From: Gammaproteobacteria bacterium
GTDB lineage: Bacteria; Pseudomonadota; Gammaproteobacteria; Tenderiales; Tenderiaceae
DNA length: 64,000 nucleotides
Reading direction: 5' to 3'
NCBI GenBank assembly: GCA_021731365.1
Contig: JAKFXL010000017.1
Coordinates: 41,755 to 105,754 of the forward strand
The notes beneath the pieces are model-generated. The model ran no database searches and was not told the origin of the DNA. It saw only the letters and a program-made list of their open reading frames with translations. How positions within the stretch are numbered: position 1 is the stretch's first letter; the number at the start of each line of letters is the position of its first letter. The position numbers were made by a program, and so were the translations under genes. This document shows, one piece after another, positions 587 to 24,928 of the stretch.

Positions 587-1090
587 TTATGTCAACGGCC
601 AAAACCATATTTCCTTGGATGAAAAATAACATGCAGAGTTACAGACCTGTACAGCATTGGACGTTTCTATCAAGTCAATGTGACCACCACCATAACCTGT
701 TACCTTCCAGAATAAGACCACACCTTTTTTTCCACTCAGTCGTACAACGGCATTACTAGGACTGATCAGTTCTGGTCTCCCAAACAATTGTGGCTTTGCT
801 AGCTGATCAGCCAAAAGTTTTGCACCCGGCTCAATCATTCTTCCTTTATTTGGTCCATCTTTAATTTTTAACCGGCCAGAAAAGTTCATGCCAGACTTTG
901 TTAGGGCAAGACTCATTCTGACTGCGCAGGTGTTTACATAACCCGGGTTTTGCTTTTTCAACTCTTCAATATCATATCCGATTAGCTTATATATCTCTTC
1001 ACCGCTCATGAAGTTTGAATTGTGTTTGTTTGATGAATAGTGATTAGCTTTAAGCGCCATAAAGGGAGGTTTCACTTGATACTCCTGCAT
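587..1090 (-). CDS. tae4: Type VI secretion amidase effector Tae4 family (peptidoglycan DL-endopeptidase)
   Basis: 167 aa. NTCAVRMSLALTKSG aligns with the catalytic-Cys block NACPIRMSYVLN of Salmonella Tae4 as recalled from memory. KKGVVLFWKVTGYGGGHIDLIETS aligns with the His block KKGIIVVKGHGWSNARGHVTLWNGS. Length matches. The gene sits in an AT-rich islet, unlike the flanking genes. Confidence 0.75.
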   Translation of the reverse strand: MQEYQVKPPFMALKANHYSSNKHNSNFMSGEEIYKLIGYDIEELKKQNPGYVNTCAVRMSLALTKSGMNFSGRLKIKDGPNKGRMIEPGAKLLADQLAKPQLFGRPELISPSNAVVRLSGKKGVVLFWKVTGYGGGHIDLIETSNAVQVCNSACYFSSKEIWFWPLT

Positions 1091-1494
1091 GGAAATTGTT
1101 TTCGGAGGATTTTTTTAATTACAGTTGCTGCTCGCTCATTAAGCTGATTATCTGTAAGTTTTCTAAATTCTACAAAAATTGTTTCGTCAATAGTTATGGT
1201 TTTATATGTTTTATAGTCACACCACTCATTTCCTTCTGTTGCATCAAGAACCCCTAGCAAATAAAGCTCTGCGTATCTTCTTTCTTCTACAGAGCCACTC
1301 ATTGAAGTATTAAAATAATCTCTTGCTGTGAGATTTGTATTTTCAATAATGATACTTTGGGTTGAATGCAAGGGCTTCGTAAAATTCGCACTGTAAGTAT
1401 TAGCGTACGATACGGTAATAACAAACACTCCAAACACAATAAATGATGCTTTTTTTATAATGCTCGGTAGTAAATCAATAATGAATTTTGACAT
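1072..1494 (-). CDS. putative Tai4/Rap1a-like periplasmic immunity protein for Tae4
   Basis: 140 aa from internal ATG at 1494 with GGAGG RBS (the track ORF extends further upstream to 1683). N-terminal hydrophobic signal/anchor MSKFIIDLLPSIIKKASFIVFGVFVITV. Motifs YAELYLLGVLDATEGNEWC and a C-terminal FPC, reminiscent of the Rap1a/Tai4 family as recalled from memory. AT-rich like tae4 and overlaps the tae4 start by 19 nt. Confidence 0.5.
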   Translation of the reverse strand: MSKFIIDLLPSIIKKASFIVFGVFVITVSYANTYSANFTKPLHSTQSIIIENTNLTARDYFNTSMSGSVEERRYAELYLLGVLDATEGNEWCDYKTYKTITIDETIFVEFRKLTDNQLNERAATVIKKILRKQFPCRSIK

Positions 1495-1568
1495 AAAACC
1501 TCCGCGGTTAAAATTTATTGGGATGGCTAACGCGCTAATGGTGCGGTATCCCGGCCCACAGGTTGTGA

Positions 1569-2387
1569 TTACGGGTTGTTCTGACTCATAAGTAGAGAGG
1601 CGCGATCGGCGGCCTGATTCAGGGCCGAGATCATGGCGTTCCCCAGTAGCTGCACGCCCCAGCGGTAGCTGCTGCTTTCGCACTGTTTGATGTGGGTCTC
1701 CAACTCCTGGTCTGAGAGGTTGCGGAAGGTGTAGAGGTAGGTCAGCTGGGTGCCCTCCCTGTACGCACCATTGAACGAGTCGCGCACCTCTTTCACCATC
1801 TTATCCATCTCGCTGCTGCCTACCCGCATATCCTCCTCCATCACGGGATTGATGGCAGTGAACACCGCCTTAAAAAAGGCCGCCTGCATATCCACGCCAA
1901 AGTCGGTGATGCGGGTTGCTTTGTCGAGCCGTGCGATCTGTTTCAGTCGCGCCGCTGATGCCGGTTTGGTTTTGAGTGTCGCTGCAAAGGCGTTGAAGTC
2001 ATCGCGGCTTTCCGGTGCGTTACTGGTGCGTTCCAGTTCGGCAATCTTTTTTGAAAGTGGTGACCGTAGCTGTTTTAGATAGGCGGCTCCCTGCTTGGGG
2101 TCGTAATGGGCCTGGATCAGCGCCAGTACATCTTTGCGAACAGCGGCGCTGGCAAAGGCCTGGTTGAAGGCTTGGCTCAAGGCCGAGTTGACCTTTGGCT
2201 CCAGCGCACCACTGCTCTGTTTCAGGGTGTTGTGGGCAAACTGTGGCACATGCTCCACCAATTTATCAAACCCGGTTTCGGTCATGATGGCGTTGATTTC
2301 ACTGCTACGTTCAGCAGCCTGGGCCAGTGACAGGGAGGCGAGGCAGAGCAGTAGGGCGGTCTGGATCAGGGTTCTTGCTTTAATCAT
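1569..2387 (-). CDS. secreted/periplasmic protein of unknown function (DUF2059-like internal repeats)
   Basis: 272 aa with a clear Sec signal peptide (LLLCLASLSLAQAAE). Helical, K/A/Q-rich, with two similar halves. Native GC. Confidence 0.45.
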   Translation of the reverse strand: MIKARTLIQTALLLCLASLSLAQAAERSSEINAIMTETGFDKLVEHVPQFAHNTLKQSSGALEPKVNSALSQAFNQAFASAAVRKDVLALIQAHYDPKQGAAYLKQLRSPLSKKIAELERTSNAPESRDDFNAFAATLKTKPASAARLKQIARLDKATRITDFGVDMQAAFFKAVFTAINPVMEEDMRVGSSEMDKMVKEVRDSFNGAYREGTQLTYLYTFRNLSDQELETHIKQCESSSYRWGVQLLGNAMISALNQAADRASLLMSQNNP

Positions 2388-2449: not shown

Positions 2450-3727
2450 TCAGGCACCGTGGAATTCAGGTTTGTCCCAGAAGGCAAAGCTGAACTCTTC
2501 GATGCTCTCTTTGCAAAGGGTGATGGTTTCCATCACTTCATGGCTATCGCCGTCAATCACCGCCAGCGTGCCCTGGGTCAGGTTGGGGATGAGGATGATC
2601 GGTGACGCCTGCTGCTGTTGCAGGAAGGCGATGGGGCGACGACCGGCGGCACACGGCTCCAGCTTGATCTCATGGATCAGGGTCAGTGCAGGCAGCTTGG
2701 TGCTGTCATAAACCTGGACGATATCGTTGTGCAGGTTCTCCAGCTGAACCCCCTTGCCGGTAGAGGCACCGGTGACATAAAGACGATCACCCGTGAGGTT
2801 GAAGCGGTAGACGCTAGGGTAGAAGTCCTGGATGTCGAGGGCGGTACTGAGTTCGGTCTTGGTGACATCCAGGACACTCAAGCGGCCGATGACATGGTCA
2901 GGGTCTGCCTTGCGGTCTGCCCCCTTGCCAATCAAAAACTTACCACAACGGCTCAGGAGCAGATTACTGCTGAGTGGCATGGGTACAGTGCGCTCCACCT
3001 CGAAGGTCAGCGGATCAATCACCGCTACGCTGTTATAGCCGTTGTTGAGGTTGTAAACCTTGCCAGTGACCGGCGAGAACTCCATGCCATGGGGGAAGGC
3101 GTTGTTGGGTACACCCGCAGCCCCCTCTTTTTCAAAACGGGGATCAAATAGATTAATGGTGGTAATCACCTTAAGGAAGGTGATGGCATCGCTGGGGTCA
3201 TTGCCGACAATCGATAGGGTGCCATCCTCCAGATTGCTGATAAAGGCGCGGTGTGGAATCTGGCTATTGCCGGGAGTAGGGCGGGTAAAGGCAGAGACGT
3301 GGTGACCACGTCCGACCAACAGCGTCTCCAGTACCTCACCAGTGCCATTGGTCTTGGAGGCGACAGTCACCGTCGCGCCATTGTCACCACAGTTCAGGGT
3401 ATCGTTGCCATTCTCATCACCGTCGTTGCTGTACCAGAGACGCACTGAGCCGGGATCGCGGTAGGCGTAGTTAAAGCGGCAGTCGCTCTCTACCTGTTTG
3501 CTGGCGGTGACTGTTTTGGTCACAGGGTCCAGAATCAGGGCGCAACCCTCTGAATTGACACCAAGAAAGACCGAACGGCGGTTAAAATCACCGCCCTTGG
3601 CTGGGGCGCTGGCAAGGGTGGTGACACTGCTTTTGCCGCCTTGACGCTGCACAATCACAACCGCACCAGTGTGGTTGCCATAATCCAGATGGCAGGCGAT
3701 GTTCCAGTCGATGGCCGATGTATCCAT
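2450..3727 (-). CDS. beta-propeller repeat protein (YVTN/NHL-like), no signal peptide
   Basis: 425 aa with repeated Gly/Asp-rich ~40-residue blades (e.g. GKVYNLNNGYNSVAVID, GDRLYVTGASTGKGVQ). Head of a minus-strand gene string leading to tae4. Confidence 0.45.
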   Translation of the reverse strand: MDTSAIDWNIACHLDYGNHTGAVVIVQRQGGKSSVTTLASAPAKGGDFNRRSVFLGVNSEGCALILDPVTKTVTASKQVESDCRFNYAYRDPGSVRLWYSNDGDENGNDTLNCGDNGATVTVASKTNGTGEVLETLLVGRGHHVSAFTRPTPGNSQIPHRAFISNLEDGTLSIVGNDPSDAITFLKVITTINLFDPRFEKEGAAGVPNNAFPHGMEFSPVTGKVYNLNNGYNSVAVIDPLTFEVERTVPMPLSSNLLLSRCGKFLIGKGADRKADPDHVIGRLSVLDVTKTELSTALDIQDFYPSVYRFNLTGDRLYVTGASTGKGVQLENLHNDIVQVYDSTKLPALTLIHEIKLEPCAAGRRPIAFLQQQQASPIILIPNLTQGTLAVIDGDSHEVMETITLCKESIEEFSFAFWDKPEFHGA

Positions 3728-3849: not shown

Positions 3850-4485
3850 GGATTGTTGAAATTTAACCAGGACGTGTGAAAGACCATGCAAAAAGCGGAA
3901 CCCCAACCAGCGAAAGTACAAAACCAACCGGCCTCCCAGCAGAGGGGCGGCGGGGTGGCCGACTCCCCACAGGCTGAACAGATCGCGCAACTTGAGGCGA
4001 TGGTTGCAGCCAGTTCACATCAGGCAGCGTTGCAGAAGATGGCGGACGGGATGCATAACAGCCTGCGCCAACGGACGGCGCAAAACTTTTTAGAAGGCAT
4101 CAACAACTCCCCGAAGATGGTGGCGCAACGCATGCGGCATGAGCAGATGTTCGGTGTGGCGCAGCTGGAGAAACAGGCCGAGGCCAAACCCAACAATACG
4201 GGGCTGCCGGATAACCTCAAATCCGGCATCGAGAACCTCTCCGGGATGTCGATGGACAACGTCAAGGTTCACTACAACTCGGACCAGCCCGCGCAACTCA
4301 ACGCCCTGGCCTACGCGCAAGGCAGTGACATCCACCTCGCGCCGGGGCAGGAGCAGCATCTGCCGCATGAGGCGTGGCATGTCGTCCAGCAGGCGCAGGG
4401 TCGGGTGCAGCCGACGATGCAGATGAAGGAAGGTATGCTGGTCAATGATGACAAGGGGCTGGAGCATGAGGCGGATGTGATGGGG
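3850..4485 (+). repeat. direct repeat copy 1: shared promoter-proximal plus 5' coding module of the DUF4157 paralogs
   Basis: Essentially 100% identical to 5702..6337 over ~600 nt of coding sequence plus ~36 nt upstream with a few mismatches. Identity ends abruptly after ...GATGTGATGGGGGC. Confidence 0.85.
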
Positions 4486-5619
4486 GCGAGGGCGTTGGAA
4501 TCTGCCGCGCAGCGGGTGACAAAATCGCCCGCTGAGATTGATGTTGCAGCCGGGCCTGTGATGCAGCGCTATGTGGAGGTCGGGGGCGGGGTGAGTCTTT
4601 CGGAGAACAGTGTTTTTGCCGTGAGAGGCGAGGGCAAGGGCAACGAACTGTTTGTGAAAGCGGGTACGCCATTGCCGGCATTCCAGCATGTTGCGTTGCA
4701 GGAAGGCGGCGACACGCTAAAGGTGTCCGGCGTCACGCTTGTCAAGGTGGATGCAGAGTATGAGAACGAAGACGAGTTAGCAAAGATGTATTGCGGAAAG
4801 TTTTCCGAGATGGTGACCGGGGTTAAGGAAAGCGAGGAAAATGAGACGGCGACGTCCGGTAGAAGTCTCTATGTAGATAGCCTATACGATCTTGAAGGCG
4901 ACTATGATGGGGCGTGGCAGAATCACTTCGCGCCGGTGGTTGTCGCCGATGGGTCTGATCGCGGCACCTTGGAGACGGCGGTCGGCATAGACTATATCTG
5001 GCACGGGATTTACGGCAAGAGTCGCGGGCAATCGTTCCGATATAAGACCGCCGTGGCGGATGTGGCGCTTCAACTCAGTCGTCAACGTGTGAGTCCGGAA
5101 CAGGCGCGTGAGGTGTTGGGTTATCTCGCACTCTACGTCAAGGATGGCATTCCAGATAAAGAGTCGATAACGCCACAAATTCTGGATGAGGTGCTGAAGA
5201 TTGAGACGGCGCTGAAAAGTCTTGTCGAGATAGGGTTCAAGGAACCCAAAACAACGGAACTGGGGTCAGCCAAGGAGGCGCGTGAAAAGAGAGAGGGGGA
5301 GGAGCGCAAGAAGCGCTATCTGGGTATCGTGGATGACATTAGCCAAGGCAAGCCCGGCTGGGAAGATCAAGTGAAGCAAGTGCACAAGTACACGATGCGC
5401 GCTCTGATCAGTGAGGCCCTCACGGCGAAGGATTTGACTGAGGATCAGGTGCTCAGGTTGCAGCAGGCCATGGGCATGGTTCAGGAGTCAATGTCGAACT
5501 CTAGTATAAGTTCGCGTCCGGAAAGTTCAGGTCTCTCAGGCCTGCAGGTTCTTGGCGGTCTGTCCATTTTGGCGATTGTAGGGGGGCTCTTGTACTACGC
5601 GAAATATAAGAGGAGCTAA
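3886..5619 (+). CDS. DUF4157 (zincin-like HExxH, eCIS-cargo-associated) domain protein with divergent C-terminal domain and C-terminal TM anchor
   Basis: 577 aa. Residues ~100-170 give LPDNLKSGIENLSGMSMDNVKVHYNSD...GSDIHLAPGQEQHLPHEAWHVVQQ, matching the DUF4157 consensus (FGxDFSxVRVHTD...GxDIxFAPGQY...HELTHVVQQ). Followed by LEHEADVMG. C-terminus GLQVLGGLSILAIVGGLLYYAKYKRS is a transmembrane helix. First in-frame ATG after a TGA. Confidence 0.7.
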   Translation: MQKAEPQPAKVQNQPASQQRGGGVADSPQAEQIAQLEAMVAASSHQAALQKMADGMHNSLRQRTAQNFLEGINNSPKMVAQRMRHEQMFGVAQLEKQAEAKPNNTGLPDNLKSGIENLSGMSMDNVKVHYNSDQPAQLNALAYAQGSDIHLAPGQEQHLPHEAWHVVQQAQGRVQPTMQMKEGMLVNDDKGLEHEADVMGARALESAAQRVTKSPAEIDVAAGPVMQRYVEVGGGVSLSENSVFAVRGEGKGNELFVKAGTPLPAFQHVALQEGGDTLKVSGVTLVKVDAEYENEDELAKMYCGKFSEMVTGVKESEENETATSGRSLYVDSLYDLEGDYDGAWQNHFAPVVVADGSDRGTLETAVGIDYIWHGIYGKSRGQSFRYKTAVADVALQLSRQRVSPEQAREVLGYLALYVKDGIPDKESITPQILDEVLKIETALKSLVEIGFKEPKTTELGSAKEAREKREGEERKKRYLGIVDDISQGKPGWEDQVKQVHKYTMRALISEALTAKDLTEDQVLRLQQAMGMVQESMSNSSISSRPESSGLSGLQVLGGLSILAIVGGLLYYAKYKRS

Positions 5620-5701: not shown

Positions 5702-6337
5702 GATTATTGAAATTTAATAAGGACGTGTGAAAAAGCCATGCAAAAAGCGGAACCCCAACCAGCGAAAGTACAAAACCAACCGGCCTCCCAGCAGAGGGGC
5801 GGCGGGGTGGCCGACTCCCCACAGGCTGAACAGATCGCGCAACTTGAGGCGATGGTTGCAGCCAGTTCACATCAGGCAGCGTTGCAGAAGATGGCGGACG
5901 GGATGCATAACAGCCTGCGCCAACGGACGGCGCAAAACTTTTTAGAAGGCATCAACAACTCCCCGAAGATGGTGGCGCAACGCATGCGGCATGAGCAGAT
6001 GTTCGGTGTGGCGCAGCTGGAGAAACAGGCCGAGGCCAAACCCAACAATACGGGGCTGCCGGATAACCTCAAATCCGGCATCGAGAACCTCTCCGGGATG
6101 TCGATGGACAACGTCAAGGTTCACTACAACTCGGACCAGCCCGCGCAACTCAACGCCCTGGCCTACGCGCAAGGCAGTGACATCCACCTCGCGCCGGGGC
6201 AGGAGCAGCATCTGCCGCATGAGGCGTGGCATGTCGTCCAGCAGGCGCAGGGTCGGGTGCAGCCGACGATGCAGATGAAGGAAGGTATGCTGGTCAATGA
6301 TGACAAGGGGCTGGAGCATGAGGCGGATGTGATGGGG
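5702..6337 (+). repeat. direct repeat copy 2 of the DUF4157 5' module
   Basis: See copy 1. The offset between copies is 1852 bp. Confidence 0.85.
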
Positions 6338-19132: not shown

Positions 19133-20521
19133 TCACTTCGCCGGCGGCAACCCCTTCTCTGCATTAAGAATCCCTTTCGGGTCAAACTGCTGTCTGATTC
19201 TGTGCATCAGGTCGAGGGTGGTGGCGTCGATCTCCCAACTGATAAAGTCGCGTTTCTCCAGCCCCACGCCGTGTTCACCCGAGAGGGTGCCGTTGAGTTT
19301 TAAGACTAATCTGAAGAGATCCCCCAGACAGTGCTCGGCGCGCTGCATCTGCTCGGCATCGTCCGGGTTTACCAGCAGGTTGACGTGGATGTTGCCGTTG
19401 CCGGCGTGGCCGAAGTTGACGATGGTGATGTTGTGCTGCTGGGCCAGCTGTTCCAGTCCGTTGATGAGGGCGGGCAGTTCGGAGACAGGTACCACCACAT
19501 CTTCGTTGATCTTTTTGGGGGCGACGTTACGCAGGGCGGGGGAGAGTGCCTTGCGTGTCTCCCAGAGCCGCGCCACCTCCTCTTTGGTATTGGCCAGGGT
19601 GATGCTGAGCAGGCCATCGTTGCGCGCGGCCTCGGCAACCCGCGTTACTGCGTCATCAAGCCCGGCGCTGGGGCCATCCACCTCGATCATCAGCATCGCC
19701 CCGGCCCCTTGCGGTAGATTTGCCTTTGAGTAGCTGCGGATCATCTCGATGGCCTGGCCATCGATGTACTCCAGGGCGCAGGGGGTGACAGGTTGCGCCA
19801 TGATGCTGGAGACGGCGGCGGCGGCGCTGTTGATGTCGCGATAGACCGCTTGCAGGGTGCGTTTGGCCTCGGGCAGCGGGGTGAGCTTAAGGGTTGCTTC
19901 GGTAATGACGGCGAGTGTGCCTTCGGAGCCGACCAACAGTCGGGTCAAATCGTAACCGACCACGCCTTTGGTGGTGTAGACGCCGGTACGGATTTCGCGG
20001 CCATCACCGGTGACGGCGCGCAGGCCGAGCACGTTGTCGCGGGTGGTGCCGTATTTGACGGCGCGTGGGCCGGCGGAGTTGTAGGCAAGGTTGCCACCGA
20101 CGCTGCAGAAGGCGGCGCTGGTGGGGTCTGGCCCCCAGAAGAAGCCGTGCTGGGCGGCGGCATCCTGGACCTGCTGGTTGGTGACGCCTGGCTCGACCAC
20201 CATGACGCGGTTGGCCGGATCGATCTTGATTATGCGATTGAGCCGCTCCAGCGATAGCACCACACCGCCGTGGATGGGCACGGTGGCACCGGTAGTGCCG
20301 GTACCACGGCCACGGGGGGTGAGTGGGATGGTCAGTGCGTGACAGAGCTGGACGATGCCAACGACCTGTTGATGGGTGGTGGGCAGGACTACTGCTTCGG
20401 GCTGGGCGTGGCGGCGGCTGTTGTCGTAGCCGTAGGGCCAACAGTCGCTGGCAGCGGTGAGCAGCTGATCTGGTTCAACCAGCGTGGCCAGACGGGCAAT
20501 AGTGTCAGCCGCCAGCGCCAT
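19133..20521 (-). CDS. FAD-linked oxidase (GlcD/D-lactate dehydrogenase family)
   Basis: 462 aa. FAD-binding PCMH domain (…VVLPTTHQQVVGIVQLC…RGRGTG…) and C-terminal FAD-oxidase domain (…GTLSGEHGVGLEKR…). Confidence 0.85.
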   Translation of the reverse strand: MALAADTIARLATLVEPDQLLTAASDCWPYGYDNSRRHAQPEAVVLPTTHQQVVGIVQLCHALTIPLTPRGRGTGTTGATVPIHGGVVLSLERLNRIIKIDPANRVMVVEPGVTNQQVQDAAAQHGFFWGPDPTSAAFCSVGGNLAYNSAGPRAVKYGTTRDNVLGLRAVTGDGREIRTGVYTTKGVVGYDLTRLLVGSEGTLAVITEATLKLTPLPEAKRTLQAVYRDINSAAAAVSSIMAQPVTPCALEYIDGQAIEMIRSYSKANLPQGAGAMLMIEVDGPSAGLDDAVTRVAEAARNDGLLSITLANTKEEVARLWETRKALSPALRNVAPKKINEDVVVPVSELPALINGLEQLAQQHNITIVNFGHAGNGNIHVNLLVNPDDAEQMQRAEHCLGDLFRLVLKLNGTLSGEHGVGLEKRDFISWEIDATTLDLMHRIRQQFDPKGILNAEKGLPPAK

Positions 20522-20523
20522 GG

Positions 20524-22093
<1,570 letters not shown>

Positions 22094-22097
<4 letters not shown>

Positions 22098-23956
22098 TGT
22101 ACGCCTCCTGTGGCGTTGGTGTTCTCGTCCAGCATGACCGGTTTGCCATTGCGAAAACGGGCCCACTGTAGCTGACGATGGATGCGGTTGGAGGCGTCCC
22201 GATAGAGATTGCCACTTTCGCCACTCAGCCCGGTTTGAGGGGTGTTGCCAAGGGTGTTGAATTGCTCCGTCAGGCTGTAGGCGTCAATGCCCATGGCGTA
22301 GAGTCGCTTGAAGGGGGCGGCGCTGCCGTGCCAGAGGCTGGTGAAATCTGCCCAGCTGGGGGAGTGTCCCTCGCCATTGGTGAGTGTCCAGGGCATATCA
22401 CAAAAGAGAATGCCATCCAGATCGCGGTCCTGGCTGGCATTGACCTCCCCGCCAAAGGTGTGGGAGGTGCTGTAGATGGGCAGGTCGCCGGCGTAGAAAA
22501 ATTTCAGCTGGGCACGGATCTGGCGGGCCTGGTTGGGAAAGGCGGCAACAAAGACAAAGTCGGGTTTTTTTGCATCGTTAGCACGACCGTTGCTGACCGC
22601 AAGCATGCTTTTGATGGGGGCGGAGAAGTCGTATTGGCTGGCATCATAACGCTGCACCTTGAGCTGCCCGCCGCCCAGCTGCCACCATTTTTGCCCAAAG
22701 ATGGTGGCGATACGGTCACCCCATTCACCGGTGGGGATCATCGCCAGGGCGTTGATATGGCCATCCTGACGGGCACGTTCGGCCACCTGGCTCGCCTCAT
22801 CTTCCGGCAGCAGGCCATACTGGTAGAGGTTTTTGACCGCCACTTTATCGTCGTTGAGATAGTTGAGCGCCAGGGTAGGCACAGCGGGCTGGCCGCTGCT
22901 GTTGATCTGTTCTAACAGGGGTTTGTGCAGTGGCCCAACGATGAAATCCGCACCGTCTGTCAGCGCCTGACGATAGCTCGCCATGCCGGTATTAATATCA
23001 TCGGTGGTATCGTAAACACGAATAGTGGGGCTGTAATCACTGCTGCGTCGGGCGTAGTGGGCGGCCAGAAAACCGTCCCGCACAGCCACGGCCTGATTGC
23101 TGAAACTACCACTGAGTGGTAGCAGCAGGGCGATGTTGTCGGGCAGTTTGGCAATGGCCTCTTTGCTGGCGCTCTGCACCCCTGTGATCAGGGTTTCACT
23201 GGCGGGGTGGCGGGGGTAGCGGCTGCGCCACTCGGAGAGTCGCTGGTTGAGTTGCCGGGGTTGGCTGGCGGCTGTTTTGGCCAGTACGGCCAGCTCAACC
23301 CAACCACTGAAGATGTCGGGGGGTGGCTGTTTACGCAGATTACGTAATGTATTCTCCTGGTATTGGTTGAGCGCGGTCCAGATCTGCAGCTGGCTTTTAC
23401 GGATGGCGGCTTCATCGTGTAAAAACTTGTTCAACGCGACCCAGGCACGGGCTGCTTCGAGGGGGTTGCCGGTCAATGTGTTGGCATCGCCCATCAGCGT
23501 ATACCACTCCTGCTGAAGGTCGGCAGGCGGGGTAATATTGGTCGTGAGCTGCAGCTGCTCCAGGGCTATTCTGGGCTGTCTTTCACTCATGGCAATACGG
23601 GCCTGGATGAGCCGCAGACGCAGATTCTGGTCGGTGGTCAGCTGTTTGCTGTCGAGGGTGGCGATGACGGTTTTGGCGCGGTCGCCATTGTCGCTGCGGC
23701 TCAGCAGGTTGGCCGCCTCCAGCAGATGTCCTTCGCGTGCCGGACTCTGATTACGCAGTGCCAGCTGCTGGTAAGTTTGTGCAGCCCCTAGCAGATTGCC
23801 ACGCCCCTCCAGGGCTTTTGCCTGGGCATAGAGATCGGTGGCGTTGAGCTGGCTGATATCCTTTTCCGGCATATTGCCGCAACCGGCAAACAGGATCAGC
23901 AGAAGTGCCAGTAGCTGGCGGCTGGCAGGGGTACGGGTCATTGGTCTTGTTATCAT
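22094..23956 (-). CDS. lpoA: penicillin-binding protein activator LpoA
   Basis: 620 aa. Lipoprotein signal (LLILFAGCG), N-terminal TPR-like region and C-terminal periplasmic-binding-protein-like domain. Conserved position divergent from rsmI. Confidence 0.85.
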
Positions 23957-24061
23957 GGAGTTATAATACAGTGAACATTGGCGGCGTAAATGCCGGAACG
24001 CGGCAGTATAGCATTTGGCATAATAGCCCGCTCCCCGACTCGAAACCCACAGGATAGCAGC

Positions 24062-24928
24062 ATGGTGCAGTACGGAACACTATATATAGTAGCCACCCCC
24101 ATCGGCAATCTGGGCGACATGACGGCTCGTGCGGTTGTGGTGCTGCAGCAGGTGGCGCTGATCGCCGCTGAAGATACCCGCCACAGCGGCCCGCTGTTAC
24201 AGCACTTTGGCATTACCACCCCCTGCATCGCCTGCCATGACCATAACGAACGTGAGATTGCCGCTGGATTGGTGGCGCGGATCGTGGCGGGTGAATCGAT
24301 AGCGCTGATCAGTGATGCGGGCACGCCACTCATCAGCGACCCCGGCTACCACTTGGTTCGCACAGCCCGCGAGGCGGGTGTATCAGTTGTGCCCGTGCCG
24401 GGGGCCAGCGCCTTAATTGCCGCCCTCTCTGTGTCCGGATTGCCATCAGACCGGTTCAGCTTTGAAGGGTTTCTACCCGCCAAATCTTCTGCTCGGCGGC
24501 AGCGGTTGCAGGCACTGGTCGCTGAGAGTGGCACCCTGATTTTTTATGAATCGACCCACCGCATCGAAGAGTCTCTGGCCGATATGGTGGGTGTTTTTGG
24601 TGCGGATCGTTACGCCGTTATTGCCCGGGAGATCACCAAACGGTTTGAAACCATACACGGCGACACCCTGGAAAACCTTGTCGCTTGGGTCGCCGCAGAC
24701 CCCAACCAGTGCAAGGGTGAGTTTGTGGTGATGGTGCACGGTGCAGCAGCGGTCGAAACCAGGGTGGTGGATGCCGACACCGAGCGGGTATTACGGATAC
24801 TGCTGGAAGAGCTGCCGGTCAAACAGGCCGCCGCCCTGGCGGCCAAAATCACTGGCGCAAAGAAAAATGCGCTGTATCAATTTGCCTTGGCGGCGGCGGG
24901 GCAGGCAGAGGGCAAGGCAGTTGATTAA
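24062..24928 (+). CDS. rsmI: 16S rRNA (cytidine1402-2'-O)-methyltransferase RsmI
   Basis: Start at [21 protein letters not shown]. Tetrapyrrole-methylase fold motifs. Upstream of rnpB-mraZ as in Pseudomonas-type genomes. Confidence 0.9.

What the first reader, a model, noticed from the sequence alone, without database searches (positions are those of the whole stretch)
4486..5619. Unique C-terminal region of DUF4157 paralog 1 ends in a transmembrane anchor and carries a possible Cys/His pair
After the shared module the protein continues with ~370 unique residues. These contain conserved-looking Cys and His contexts (…AKMYCGKFSEMV… and …IDYIWHGIYGKSRG…) that could form a Cys-His catalytic pair of a papain/transglutaminase/CHAP-like fold. 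The protein ends in a hydrophobic helix followed by basic residues (LSILAIVGGLLYYAKYKRS), typical of a tail-anchored membrane protein. A zincin-like domain fused to a putative effector domain with a C-terminal membrane anchor is an unusual arrangement. It suggests the protein is targeted to a membrane, host or bacterial, after delivery.
Basis: inference. Interest (0 to 1): 0.5.

Follow-up and report, generated by a model that had tools for sequence, protein, structure and literature searches.

The report
Tail-anchored new toxin-like domain on DUF4157
The C-terminal two thirds of this gene is a rare, unnamed protein domain with an invariant cysteine, histidine and three acidic residues, followed by a conserved membrane-spanning tail; it sits behind a module that marks cargo of phage-tail-like injection systems, so it is most likely an injected enzyme that ends up anchored in a membrane.

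Summary
The sequence features are real. Window 3886-5619(+) encodes a 577-aa protein. Its first 200 codons are 100% identical at DNA level to the next gene (5738-7969) and carry PF13699 (DUF4157, now named 'eCIS_core').

Residues 224-400 form a small uncharacterised family: 41 cluster representatives among 1.84 billion, with no Pfam, NCBIfam or PDB sequence match.

- Cys303 is the only cysteine in the protein and is invariant (47/47).
- The conserved histidine is His347 (47/47). Asp355, Asp358 and Glu363 are also invariant.

The C-terminal helix is membrane-like, not amphipathic, and recurs in 18 homologues.

A zincin-like module fused to an effector domain is the published norm for DUF4157 proteins, not unusual. 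One family member lies inside a contractile-injection gene cluster; most loci, including this one, are orphans.

Verdict: a new toxin-like domain family with a tail anchor. The chemistry and delivery route are inferred.

The parts
3886..5619 (+). Gene for paralogue 1 (577 aa): hydrophilic N-terminus, DUF4157, new Cys/His core, helical region, tail anchor
   Evidence: ORF list. An identical protein is in the public collection as P0001.
3886..4487 (+). 602-nt block 100% identical to 5738-6339 (codons 1-200 of both paralogues). The cassette boundary is at codon 201.
   Evidence: Base-by-base comparison. The roughly 45 nt upstream regions are also similar.
3886..4200 (+). N-terminal region aa 1-105: Gln/Ala-rich, hydrophilic, no signal peptide. 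Candidate loading sequence.
   Evidence: Kyte-Doolittle sum of the first 35 aa is -41.4; composition. Matches the hydrophilic, disordered N-termini reported for eCIS cargo.
4204..4401 (+). PF13699 eCIS_core (DUF4157) domain, aa 107-172, with an intact HEAWH motif at nt 4366-4380
   Evidence: Pfam E 8.4e-09, 35.9 bits against a cut-off of 22. Motif position.
4555..5085 (+). Core domain of a new family, aa 224-400: a six-stranded beta N-terminal part, a helix starting at Cys303, four strands and two helices
   Evidence: Family found. Alignment A3. AlphaFold2 pLDDT 90.7, pTM 0.88. No Pfam, NCBIfam or PDB sequence hit.
4792..4794 (+). Cys303 codon: the only Cys in the protein, invariant, at the N-terminus of helix 80-88 of the model
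   Evidence: 47/47 conserved; secondary structure.
4924..4926 (+). His347 codon: invariant His at the start of a beta strand (motif W-x-N-H-[YF]-A)
   Evidence: 47/47 conserved; secondary structure.
4948..4974 (+). Invariant acidic cluster D355, D358, E363 (D-G-x-D-R-x-T-[LF]-E), spanning the hairpin that follows the His strand
   Evidence: 47/47 conserved for each residue.
5002..5004 (+). Not conserved.
   Evidence: His in 2/47 members; Phe in 26/47 and Val in 12/47.
5086..5481 (+). Helical region aa 401-532, including a charged linker at aa 446-470 and a confidently modelled helical bundle at aa ~472-532
   Evidence: First model: blocks 250-310 have pLDDT 84-89 and are all helical. Conserved in the close subfamily.
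5482..5529 (+). Ser-rich linker, aa 533-548
   Evidence: Sequence; low pLDDT.
5530..5601 (+). Predicted transmembrane helix, aa 549-572 (GLSGLQVLGGLSILAIVGGLLYYA), Gly-rich and moderately hydrophobic
   Evidence: Kyte-Doolittle 1.84, hydrophobic moment 0.25. Simple Hessa-scale sum +2.5 kcal/mol. An equivalent segment is present in 18 homologues.
5602..5619 (+). Basic C-terminal tail KYKRS (net +3) and the stop codon
5738..7969 (+). Paralogue 2 (743 aa): the same N-terminus and DUF4157, but a different 543-aa C-terminal region that lacks this core and lacks a TM helix

Best explanation
Paralogue 1 is a modular cargo/effector protein of the DUF4157 ('eCIS_core') class.

- A hydrophilic, disordered N-terminus and the DUF4157 module form the delivery part. 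This part is shared base-for-base with the neighbouring gene.
- Residues 224-400 are the payload: a previously undescribed domain family.
- The invariant residues are Cys303 (at a helix N-terminus), His347 (at a strand start) and Asp355/Asp358/Glu363. They most likely form the active site of a thiol-dependent hydrolase or transferase.
- A helical spacer follows, then a moderately hydrophobic C-terminal transmembrane helix with a basic tail. This makes it a tail-anchored protein.

The anchor is the last thing to leave the ribosome. The protein can therefore stay soluble and be loaded in the producer, and insert post-translationally into a membrane of the recipient cell, holding the enzyme at that membrane.

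Shown: the architecture, the residue conservation, the confident fold, the DUF4157 association, and one relative inside a contractile-injection gene cluster.

Inferred: catalysis, the substrate, delivery, and which membrane is targeted.
For: Family and invariant residues:
- 41 representatives in 1.84 billion proteins, with further members.
- C303, H347, D355, D358 and E363 are each 47/47 conserved. C303 is the sole Cys in the protein.

Fold: pLDDT 90.7, pTM 0.88, with Cys at the first residue of helix 80-88 and His at the start of strand 123-132.

Effector logic:
- PF13699 is present in both paralogues and in cis in many family members of divergent DUF4157 types.
- It is found in trans two genes upstream of P0045, and as a weak DUF4157-like ORF immediately upstream in L019/L020.
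- P0028 is encoded inside a cluster with gp25, VgrG/Phage_GPD, CIS_tube, T4_gp19, a PAAR-like DUF4280 and Tail_P2_I.
- The core is joined to alternative N-terminal leaders at a conserved (V/I)QRY junction, and all N-termini are hydrophilic without signal peptides.
- A 602-nt identical N-terminal block with a sharp switch at codon 201 indicates polymorphic-toxin cassette behaviour.
- The relative's locus has a different, decayed second cassette.

Literature:
- DUF4157 marks eCIS-associated toxins. AlgoCIS Cgo1/Cgo2 share a loading N-terminus plus DUF4157 and differ in the C-terminal domain.
- Tail-anchored T4SS effectors with positive C-tails go to the mitochondrial outer membrane (PMC12313075).

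Tail anchor.
Against: - No contractile-injection or T6SS structural gene is present in the 64-kb window.
- Only 1 of about 12 distinct family loci lies in such a cluster; the rest are orphans among housekeeping genes.
- No fold or profile link to any known thiol enzyme reaches significance.
- I could not obtain model coordinates, so the Cys-His distance is untested.
- A His plus three acidic residues could equally form a metal site.
- Flanking charges around the TM helix are not uniform across the family: some members have the basic residues upstream.
- No toxicity or immunity gene is evident.
Confidence: 0.55

Rival explanations
1. Resident membrane protein of the producer. The tail anchors a cytoplasmic DUF4157 zincin plus Cys/His domain to the bacterium's own inner membrane, as a membrane-proximal protease or regulator, or as a lysis or firing accessory of a CIS. 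It is not injected.
For: - There are no CIS genes in the window, and most family loci are orphans.
- Several members have Arg/Lys clusters on the N-terminal side of the TM helix, the normal N-in topology in bacteria.
- Membrane accessory proteins of CIS exist, for example CisA (PMC12237407).
Against: - Two tandem genes have identical N-termini but unrelated C-terminal regions. Only one of them has the anchor.
- Subfamilies ii and iii carry the same core without any TM helix.
- The window protein and its closest relatives have the positive charges on the far side of the helix (net +2 to +3). This disfavours N-in/C-out insertion in a bacterial inner membrane.
- The helix is only marginally hydrophobic.
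Confidence: 0.2
2. T6SS-delivered antibacterial cell-wall amidase of the CHAP/NlpC-P60 (papain-like) superfamily.
For: - A Tae4/Rap1a-type T6SS effector-immunity pair lies 2.2 kb upstream.
- The three best Foldseek PDB hits are the CHAP endolysin Ly7917, and several weak BFVD hits are endolysins.
- The Cys-helix / His-strand / acidic-strand order and the H-x16-E spacing resemble the CHAP domain of LysK, where the spacing is H117-x17-E134.
Against: - hhalign probability is 0.5% against CHAP and 0.2% against Tae4.
- There is no adjacent immunity gene and no PAAR, VgrG or adaptor gene.
- A cytoplasm-side tail anchor is odd for a periplasm-acting amidase.
- The Tae4 pair has a very different GC content (0.40 against 0.55), so it was acquired independently.
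Confidence: 0.1
3. The conserved His/Asp/Asp/Glu (with or without Cys) form a metal-binding site. The domain would then be a metal-dependent hydrolase such as a nuclease or phosphoesterase, or a non-enzymatic metal-stabilised binding module, and not a thiol enzyme.
For: - Four invariant metal-type ligands lie within 17 residues (H347-x7-D-x2-D-x4-E). Two Asp flank a tight hairpin turn.
- No papain-like fold match was found.
Against: - A sole, invariant Cys placed exactly at a helix N-terminus is the hallmark of nucleophilic cysteines.
- There is no match to any metallo-hydrolase or nuclease fold either.
Confidence: 0.12
4. The C-terminus is a cleavable sorting signal of the sortase, exosortase or rhombosortase type (motif, then TM helix, then basic cluster), rather than a permanent anchor.
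For: - The layout is tripartite: a Ser/Gly-rich linker, a GG pair invariant among the five close homologues, a hydrophobic helix and basic residues.
- The tail of relative P0009 scores above the NCBIfam LPXTG_anchor cut-off (18.7 against 15.9 bits).
Against: - The window tail matches no sorting-signal model above cut-off. There is no GlyGly-CTERM or PEP-CTERM hit, and the best is 11.9 bits against a cut-off of 21.35.
- The protein has no N-terminal signal peptide, so it cannot reach the N-out topology these systems need.
- The GG pair is not conserved in more distant members.
Confidence: 0.03

Closest known systems
eCIS-associated toxins with N-terminal DUF4157 (EATs), e.g. AlgoCIS cargo Cgo1/Cgo2 and EAT14 (PMC8213781, PMC11297309, bioRxiv 10.64898/2026.05.27.728243)
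   Same: - The order of parts is the same: hydrophilic, disordered N-terminus, then PF13699 with HExxH, then a variable C-terminal domain.
- Two cargo genes share the N-terminal part and differ in the C-terminal domain.
- No immunity gene is obvious.
- One family member is encoded in a CIS cluster.
   Different: - No eCIS operon lies within 64 kb here.
- The C-terminal domain belongs to no described toxin family.
- It carries a C-terminal transmembrane anchor, which the eCIS papers read here do not mention (no occurrence of 'transmembrane' in PMC11297309).
CHAP / NlpC-P60 papain-like amidases (e.g. LysK CHAP 4csh, Ly7917 5d74, Tae4)
   Same: - Nucleophile-type Cys at a helix N-terminus.
- His at the start of a following beta strand, with an acidic residue 16 residues later on the next strand.
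- They are the best, though weak, Foldseek hits.
   Different: - An extra six-stranded N-terminal beta part.
- An invariant D-G-x-D hairpin that is not a CHAP feature.
PLAAT/HRASLS phospholipase A/acyltransferases: eukaryotic LRAT-type NlpC/P60 thiol hydrolases with a C-terminal TM domain (PMC9338259, PMC10102619)
   Same: The functional layout is the same: a small Cys/His enzyme domain held on a membrane by a C-terminal TM helix. For PLAAT3 this lets the enzyme attack organelle membranes.
   Different: - PLAATs are circularly permuted (His before Cys) and match the LRAT/NlpC-P60 models, whereas this domain matches neither.
- This is an analogy of design only. The substrate here is unknown.
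Tail-anchored or TM-containing injected effectors of T3SS/T4SS (Legionella LpPIP, PMC12313075; Krampen et al., PMC6110835)
   Same: [quoted passage not shown]
- Moderate hydrophobicity, a net positive C-tail and no signal peptide.
   Different: - The delivery machinery differs.
- No experimental localisation exists here.
- The charge pattern is not uniform across this family.

Membership tests
PF13699 eCIS_core / DUF4157-type eCIS-associated toxin (EAT) | PF13699 domain with an HExxH motif near the N-terminus | tested here: met
   35.9 bits against a cut-off of 22, aa 107-172; HEAWH at aa 161-165.
PF13699 eCIS_core / DUF4157-type eCIS-associated toxin (EAT) | Hydrophilic, disordered N-terminal leader without a Sec signal peptide | tested here: met
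   Kyte-Doolittle sum of the first 35 aa is -41.4 (published Pdp1 value -36.9); Gln/Ala-rich. Disorder was not run with a dedicated predictor.
PF13699 eCIS_core / DUF4157-type eCIS-associated toxin (EAT) | Encoded within about 10 genes of an eCIS operon (true for 88% of known EATs) | tested here: not met
   No sheath, tube, baseplate or spike gene in the 64-kb window. The sequence upstream of window position 1 and the rest of the genome could not be examined. One relative (P0028) is in a CIS cluster.
PF13699 eCIS_core / DUF4157-type eCIS-associated toxin (EAT) | Loaded into CIS particles and toxic to a target cell | not testable with these tools
   Needs particle proteomics and expression assays.
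Papain-like thiol hydrolases (CHAP, NlpC/P60, transglutaminase-like) | Conserved Cys at a helix N-terminus and conserved His on a following beta strand | tested here: met
   C303 and H347 are 47/47 conserved. Model: helix 80-88 starts at the Cys and strand 123-132 starts at the His.
Papain-like thiol hydrolases (CHAP, NlpC/P60, transglutaminase-like) | Significant match to a family sequence model or profile | tested here: not met
   Pfam with every one of the 34 members: none. PDB hmmsearch: none. hhalign against CHAP 0.5% and against Tae4 0.2%.
Papain-like thiol hydrolases (CHAP, NlpC/P60, transglutaminase-like) | Significant structural superposition on the papain-like core | tested here: inconclusive
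   [not shown]
Papain-like thiol hydrolases (CHAP, NlpC/P60, transglutaminase-like) | Cys and His side chains adjacent in three dimensions | not testable with these tools
Tail-anchored membrane protein | Single hydrophobic helix within about 30 residues of the C-terminus, no other TM segment, no signal peptide | tested here: met
   The only Kyte-Doolittle windows above 1.6 start at aa 549-555, and 5 residues follow the helix. The N-terminus is hydrophilic.
Tail-anchored membrane protein | Helix is membrane-spanning rather than amphipathic, and conserved | tested here: met
   Hydrophobic moment 0.25 against mean hydrophobicity 1.55. 18 homologues have an equivalent tail. It is marginal on a simple Hessa-scale sum (+2.5 kcal/mol).
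Tail-anchored membrane protein | Actual post-translational membrane insertion | not testable with these tools
   Needs fractionation or microscopy.
C-terminal protein-sorting signals (GlyGly-CTERM, PEP-CTERM, LPXTG) | Match to a sorting-signal model, plus an N-terminal signal peptide | tested here: not met
   The window tail has only sub-threshold hits, 11.9 bits against a cut-off of 21.35. There is no signal peptide.
Polymorphic-toxin style cassette locus | Conserved N-terminal delivery module with a sharp junction to unrelated C-terminal domains | tested here: met
   602 nt are identical, then divergence begins at codon 201. The relative's locus has a different, decayed second cassette. No immunity gene was identified.

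The most novel reading that the evidence does not exclude
The core is a thiol enzyme with a fold unlike any solved structure. It is delivered by a contractile injection system into eukaryotic cells. There, its moderately hydrophobic tail anchor with a positively charged C-tail (the signature of mitochondrial outer-membrane or peroxisomal tail-anchored proteins) places it on an organelle membrane. Once anchored it modifies membrane lipids or membrane-proximal proteins, as a bacterial, independently evolved counterpart of the PLAAT design.
Probability: 0.12. Interest if true: 0.75.

Novelty: new variant of a known kind. Interest (0 to 1): 0.5.

Why it matters
Most predicted DUF4157 toxins (983 of 1130 in PMC11297309) have C-terminal regions with no annotated domain.

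This work defines one such region as a discrete, confidently foldable family. It has a precise set of invariant residues to mutate (C303, H347, D355, D358, E363). It also has a conserved tail anchor, which the eCIS cargo papers consulted here do not mention.

If the domain is catalytic, it adds a new enzyme fold to the toxin repertoire. It would also be a compact, membrane-self-targeting payload of interest for engineered injection systems.

If the anchor acts in the producer instead, that would bear on how DUF4157 proteins work in genomes where they are not next to a CIS operon.

Tried and rejected
Searches that found nothing:
- Direct Pfam, NCBIfam and PDB sequence searches of the C-terminal region.
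- Profile against PDB sequences. The only hits were chance matches of the charged helical part to LIN9.
- Per-member Pfam scan of 34 family members.

Structure and fold:
- The first AlphaFold run, with 5 sequences, failed on the core (pLDDT below 50 for residues 71-177). It succeeded only after the exhaustive search supplied 34 sequences.
- Model coordinates are not exposed, so catalytic geometry could not be measured.
- I considered a PD-(D/E)xK nuclease reading of D...D...E-x-A and rejected it: there is no ExK motif and no fold hit.

Profile comparisons: hhalign of the family against a small CHAP alignment built from PDB hits, and against the window's own Tae4, were both negative.

Sorting-signal reading of the tail: tested against NCBIfam and not supported for the window protein.

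Genomic context:
- Search for CIS genes around family members by Pfam and by blastp with the L013 CIS proteins found only L013 positive.
A narrower alignment returned only 4 loci.
- The promoter/terminator scan was uninformative.
- The look-up of encoding contigs had no record for the window protein itself.
Full report
**1. What is at the coordinates**

Window 3886..5619(+) is a 577-aa ORF, and 5738..7969(+) is a 743-aa ORF. Both contain PF13699 at aa 107-172. This family was formerly DUF4157 and is now called 'eCIS core domain'. It carries an intact HEAWH motif.

The two genes are 100% identical at DNA level for 602 nt. The first difference is at codon 201, which is exactly where the finding begins. 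About 45 nt upstream of each start codon are also similar.

**2. The C-terminal region is a member of a small family**

It has no Pfam, NCBIfam or PDB sequence match.

- A word-indexed search of 5.8 billion clusters found only four relatives at 48-56% identity.
- An exhaustive HMMER profile search of 1.84 billion representatives found 41 proteins at E<=1e-3, of which 33 were at E<=1e-10.
- A second indexed search added a few more.

The common unit is aa ~224-400 of the window protein. Three subfamilies are visible:

- (i) core, helical region and C-terminal hydrophobic tail. The window protein belongs here.
- (ii) core plus a roughly 90-aa soluble C-terminal extension.
- (iii) a long N-terminal extension, with the conserved part starting just before the Cys.

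**3. Conserved residues**

These counts come from a 34-sequence alignment with mean column identity 37%, and from all 47 sequences that align to the profile.

- Invariant: C303, G325, W344, H347, D355, D358, E363, Y376, G377, F384 and T388.
- C303 is the only cysteine in the whole 577-aa protein.
Otherwise it is F 26, V 12, A 4, W, Y, I.

The signature is (M/F)-C-G-x-F ... G-R-S-L-Y ... W-x-N-H-[YF]-A-x-V-x3-D-G-x-D-R-x-T-[LF]-E-[TS]-A ... W-[FV]-G-[IM]-Y-G ... G-Q-[ST]-F-x-Y-K-T.

**4. Fold**

With five sequences AlphaFold2 failed on the core: overall mean pLDDT was 52.9, and residues 71-177 were below 50. With 34 sequences the model of aa 224-427 is confident, at pLDDT 90.7 and pTM 0.88.

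In fragment numbering (add 223 for protein numbering):

- Six strands at 7-69.
- Short helix 72-77.
- Helix 80-88, beginning at Cys80 (C303).
- Strand 104-108.
- Strand 123-132, with His124 (H347) as its second residue.
- Strand 135-142, containing Glu140 (E363). Asp132 (D355) and Asp135 (D358) flank the hairpin turn between this strand and the previous one.
- Strand 145-153.
- Two helices.

A nucleophile-type Cys at a helix N-terminus followed by a His on a strand is the local arrangement of papain-like thiol hydrolases. This point rests on established knowledge of the CHAP and NlpC/P60 families.

The global comparison does not confirm membership:

- Foldseek against the PDB gives no E<=1e-3. 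Its three best hits are all the CHAP endolysin Ly7917, at E 0.34-0.67 and TM about 0.2.
- BFVD gives only scattered weak endolysin/CHAP hits.
- hhalign of the family against a CHAP alignment built from real PDB sequences gives 0.5% probability. Against the window's own Tae4 it gives 0.2%.

The AlphaFold-database libraries were unavailable and coordinates are not exposed, so the Cys-His distance could not be measured.

Conclusion: a well-defined domain whose fold has no significant match among solved structures. A thiol active site is likely. A metal site formed by His/Asp/Asp/Glu is a real alternative.

**5. The tail**

The only strongly hydrophobic stretch of the protein is aa 549-572.

- The best 19-aa Kyte-Doolittle mean is 1.84.
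- The hydrophobic moment is 0.25, against a mean hydrophobicity of 1.55. The segment is therefore not amphipathic.
- Five residues, KYKRS, follow it.

Eighteen family members end in an equivalent segment. On a simple Hessa-scale sum the window helix is marginal at +2.5 kcal/mol; the family ranges from -3.8 to +2.75. In the window protein and its four closest relatives the net positive charge (+2 to +3) lies after the helix. In some distant members it lies before the helix.

There is no signal peptide, so the layout is that of a tail-anchored protein.

I also tested a reading as a cleavable sorting signal (motif, TM helix, basic cluster). No NCBIfam sorting-signal model reaches its cut-off on the window tail, although the tail of relative P0009 passes LPXTG_anchor. 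Combined with the missing signal peptide, I reject this reading.

**6. Context and delivery**

The window is ordinary chromosome: the cell-division and cell-wall (dcw) gene cluster, secA, argJ, RNase D and so on. It contains no sheath, tube, baseplate or spike genes.

A Tae4 / Rap1a-like T6SS effector-immunity pair lies at 587..1683(-). Its GC content is 0.40, against about 0.56 around it, so it is a separate acquisition.

The nearest genome is a Candidatus Tenderia MAG:

- 92% protein identity over the query region, and 77-82% DNA identity with syntenic flanks.
- There the orthologue has an extra G in a G-run between DUF4157 and the core. This could be a frameshift or an assembly error.
- The second cassette is a pseudogene with a different C-terminal region.
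- The locus is therefore variable between conserved flanks.

Across the family:

- DUF4157 is fused in cis in many members, including divergent DUF4157 types.
- It is encoded two genes upstream of P0045.
- A weak DUF4157-like ORF lies immediately upstream in L019/L020.
- It is present as a second, tandem gene in L001.
- P0028 lies inside a contractile-injection cluster with gp25, Phage_GPD/base_V, CIS_tube, T4_gp19, DUF4280 and Tail_P2_I.
- The other loci examined are orphans among housekeeping genes, without obvious immunity genes.

Members without DUF4157 have short hydrophilic leaders, often basic and aromatic. These leaders join the core at the same (V/I)QRY junction.

Published work fits this picture:

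- DUF4157 is highly specific to eCIS loci and marks their toxins, with the toxin domain C-terminal (PMC8213781; PMC11297309).
- The two AlgoCIS cargo proteins have the same three-part design. Both have a predicted disordered N-terminal domain that is required for loading, followed by DUF4157, and they differ in the C-terminal domain. DUF4157 itself is dispensable for loading (bioRxiv 10.64898/2026.05.27.728243).

'Zincin plus effector' is therefore the norm, not an oddity.

**7. Mechanism proposed**

The N-terminus, with or without DUF4157, directs the protein to an injection machine. The core is the enzymatic payload, and the tail anchors it to a membrane after delivery.

Placing the only hydrophobic helix at the extreme C-terminus, and keeping it marginally hydrophobic, would avoid co-translational capture by the producer's membrane-targeting system. 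This principle has been shown for T3SS and T4SS effectors with transmembrane segments (PMC6110835). Tail-anchored Legionella effectors with positive C-tails localise to the mitochondrial outer membrane (PMC12313075).

An analogy of design is the eukaryotic PLAAT enzymes. They are small Cys/His thiol hydrolases with a C-terminal TM domain that attack organelle membranes (PMC9338259). This is an analogy only; no homology was detected.

Delivery, catalysis, substrate and target membrane are all inferred.

**8. Verdict**

The Cys and the tail are real and conserved; the His is the wrong residue.
- The object is a new C-terminal domain family of the known DUF4157-effector kind, unusual in carrying a conserved tail anchor and in lacking any recognisable fold relative.
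- It is moderately interesting. Unknown C-terminal regions are the rule among DUF4157 proteins, but this one is now sharply defined and directly testable.

Noticed in passing
window 587..1090 (-) and 1072..1683 (-): A T6SS amidase effector Tae4 (PF14113, E 3e-17) with an overlapping Rap1a-like immunity gene (PF18602). GC content is 0.40 against about 0.56 in neighbouring genes, so it is probably a horizontally acquired effector-immunity pair.
   Followed up: partly
window 5738..7969 (+), especially 6340..7969: Paralogue 2 has the identical N-terminus and DUF4157 but a different 543-aa C-terminal region. That region has no Pfam match, no TM helix and none of the Cys/His core. It is a second uncharacterised payload.
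   Followed up: partly
window 3886-4487 vs 5738-6339 (and ~45 nt upstream of each): The two blocks are 100% identical over 602 nt and end sharply at codon 201. This suggests recent duplication or gene conversion that swaps C-terminal cassettes behind a fixed delivery module.
   Followed up: yes
L008 4237-7040 (Candidatus Tenderia sp. MAG JAYUTP010000276.1): The syntenic locus differs in two ways. The orthologue has one extra G in a G-run between DUF4157 and the core, which is either a frameshift or an assembly error. The second cassette is decayed: two in-frame stops, no DUF4157 and a different C-terminal region.
   Followed up: partly
L013 1-21008 (metagenome scaffold, P0028 at 10001-11008): A family member without DUF4157 sits on the opposite strand in the middle of a contractile-injection gene cluster (gp25, VgrG-like, CIS_tube, T4_gp19, DUF4280, Tail_P2_I). 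A WD40/beta-propeller gene and a CHASE2 gene lie at the cluster's ends.
   Followed up: partly
L011/L012 11138-17182 vs window 19133-24928: Family member P0051 lies directly beside the same housekeeping block (FAD-linked oxidase, BON, SIS, LppC, RsmI) that is found about 14 kb downstream of the window genes. This may be a recurrent insertion neighbourhood or simply shared ancestry.
   Followed up: no
P0032 (838 aa) and P0034 (763 aa), subfamily iii: These relatives carry long Ser/Pro-rich C-terminal extensions and a further terminal domain ending in GHFD/GHFE. They may be two-payload proteins.
   Followed up: no
window 2450..3727 (-) and L008 2789..4066 (-): A 425-aa protein with only a weak beta-propeller repeat signal (TIGR02276, below cut-off) is conserved immediately upstream and divergently oriented in both genomes. 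Its function is unknown.
   Followed up: no
family-wide, e.g. window aa 226-229 (nt 4561-4572): A (V/I)-Q-R-Y motif directly precedes the core in nearly all members, whether the N-terminal part is a short leader or a DUF4157 module. It may be a processing or junction site.
   Followed up: partly
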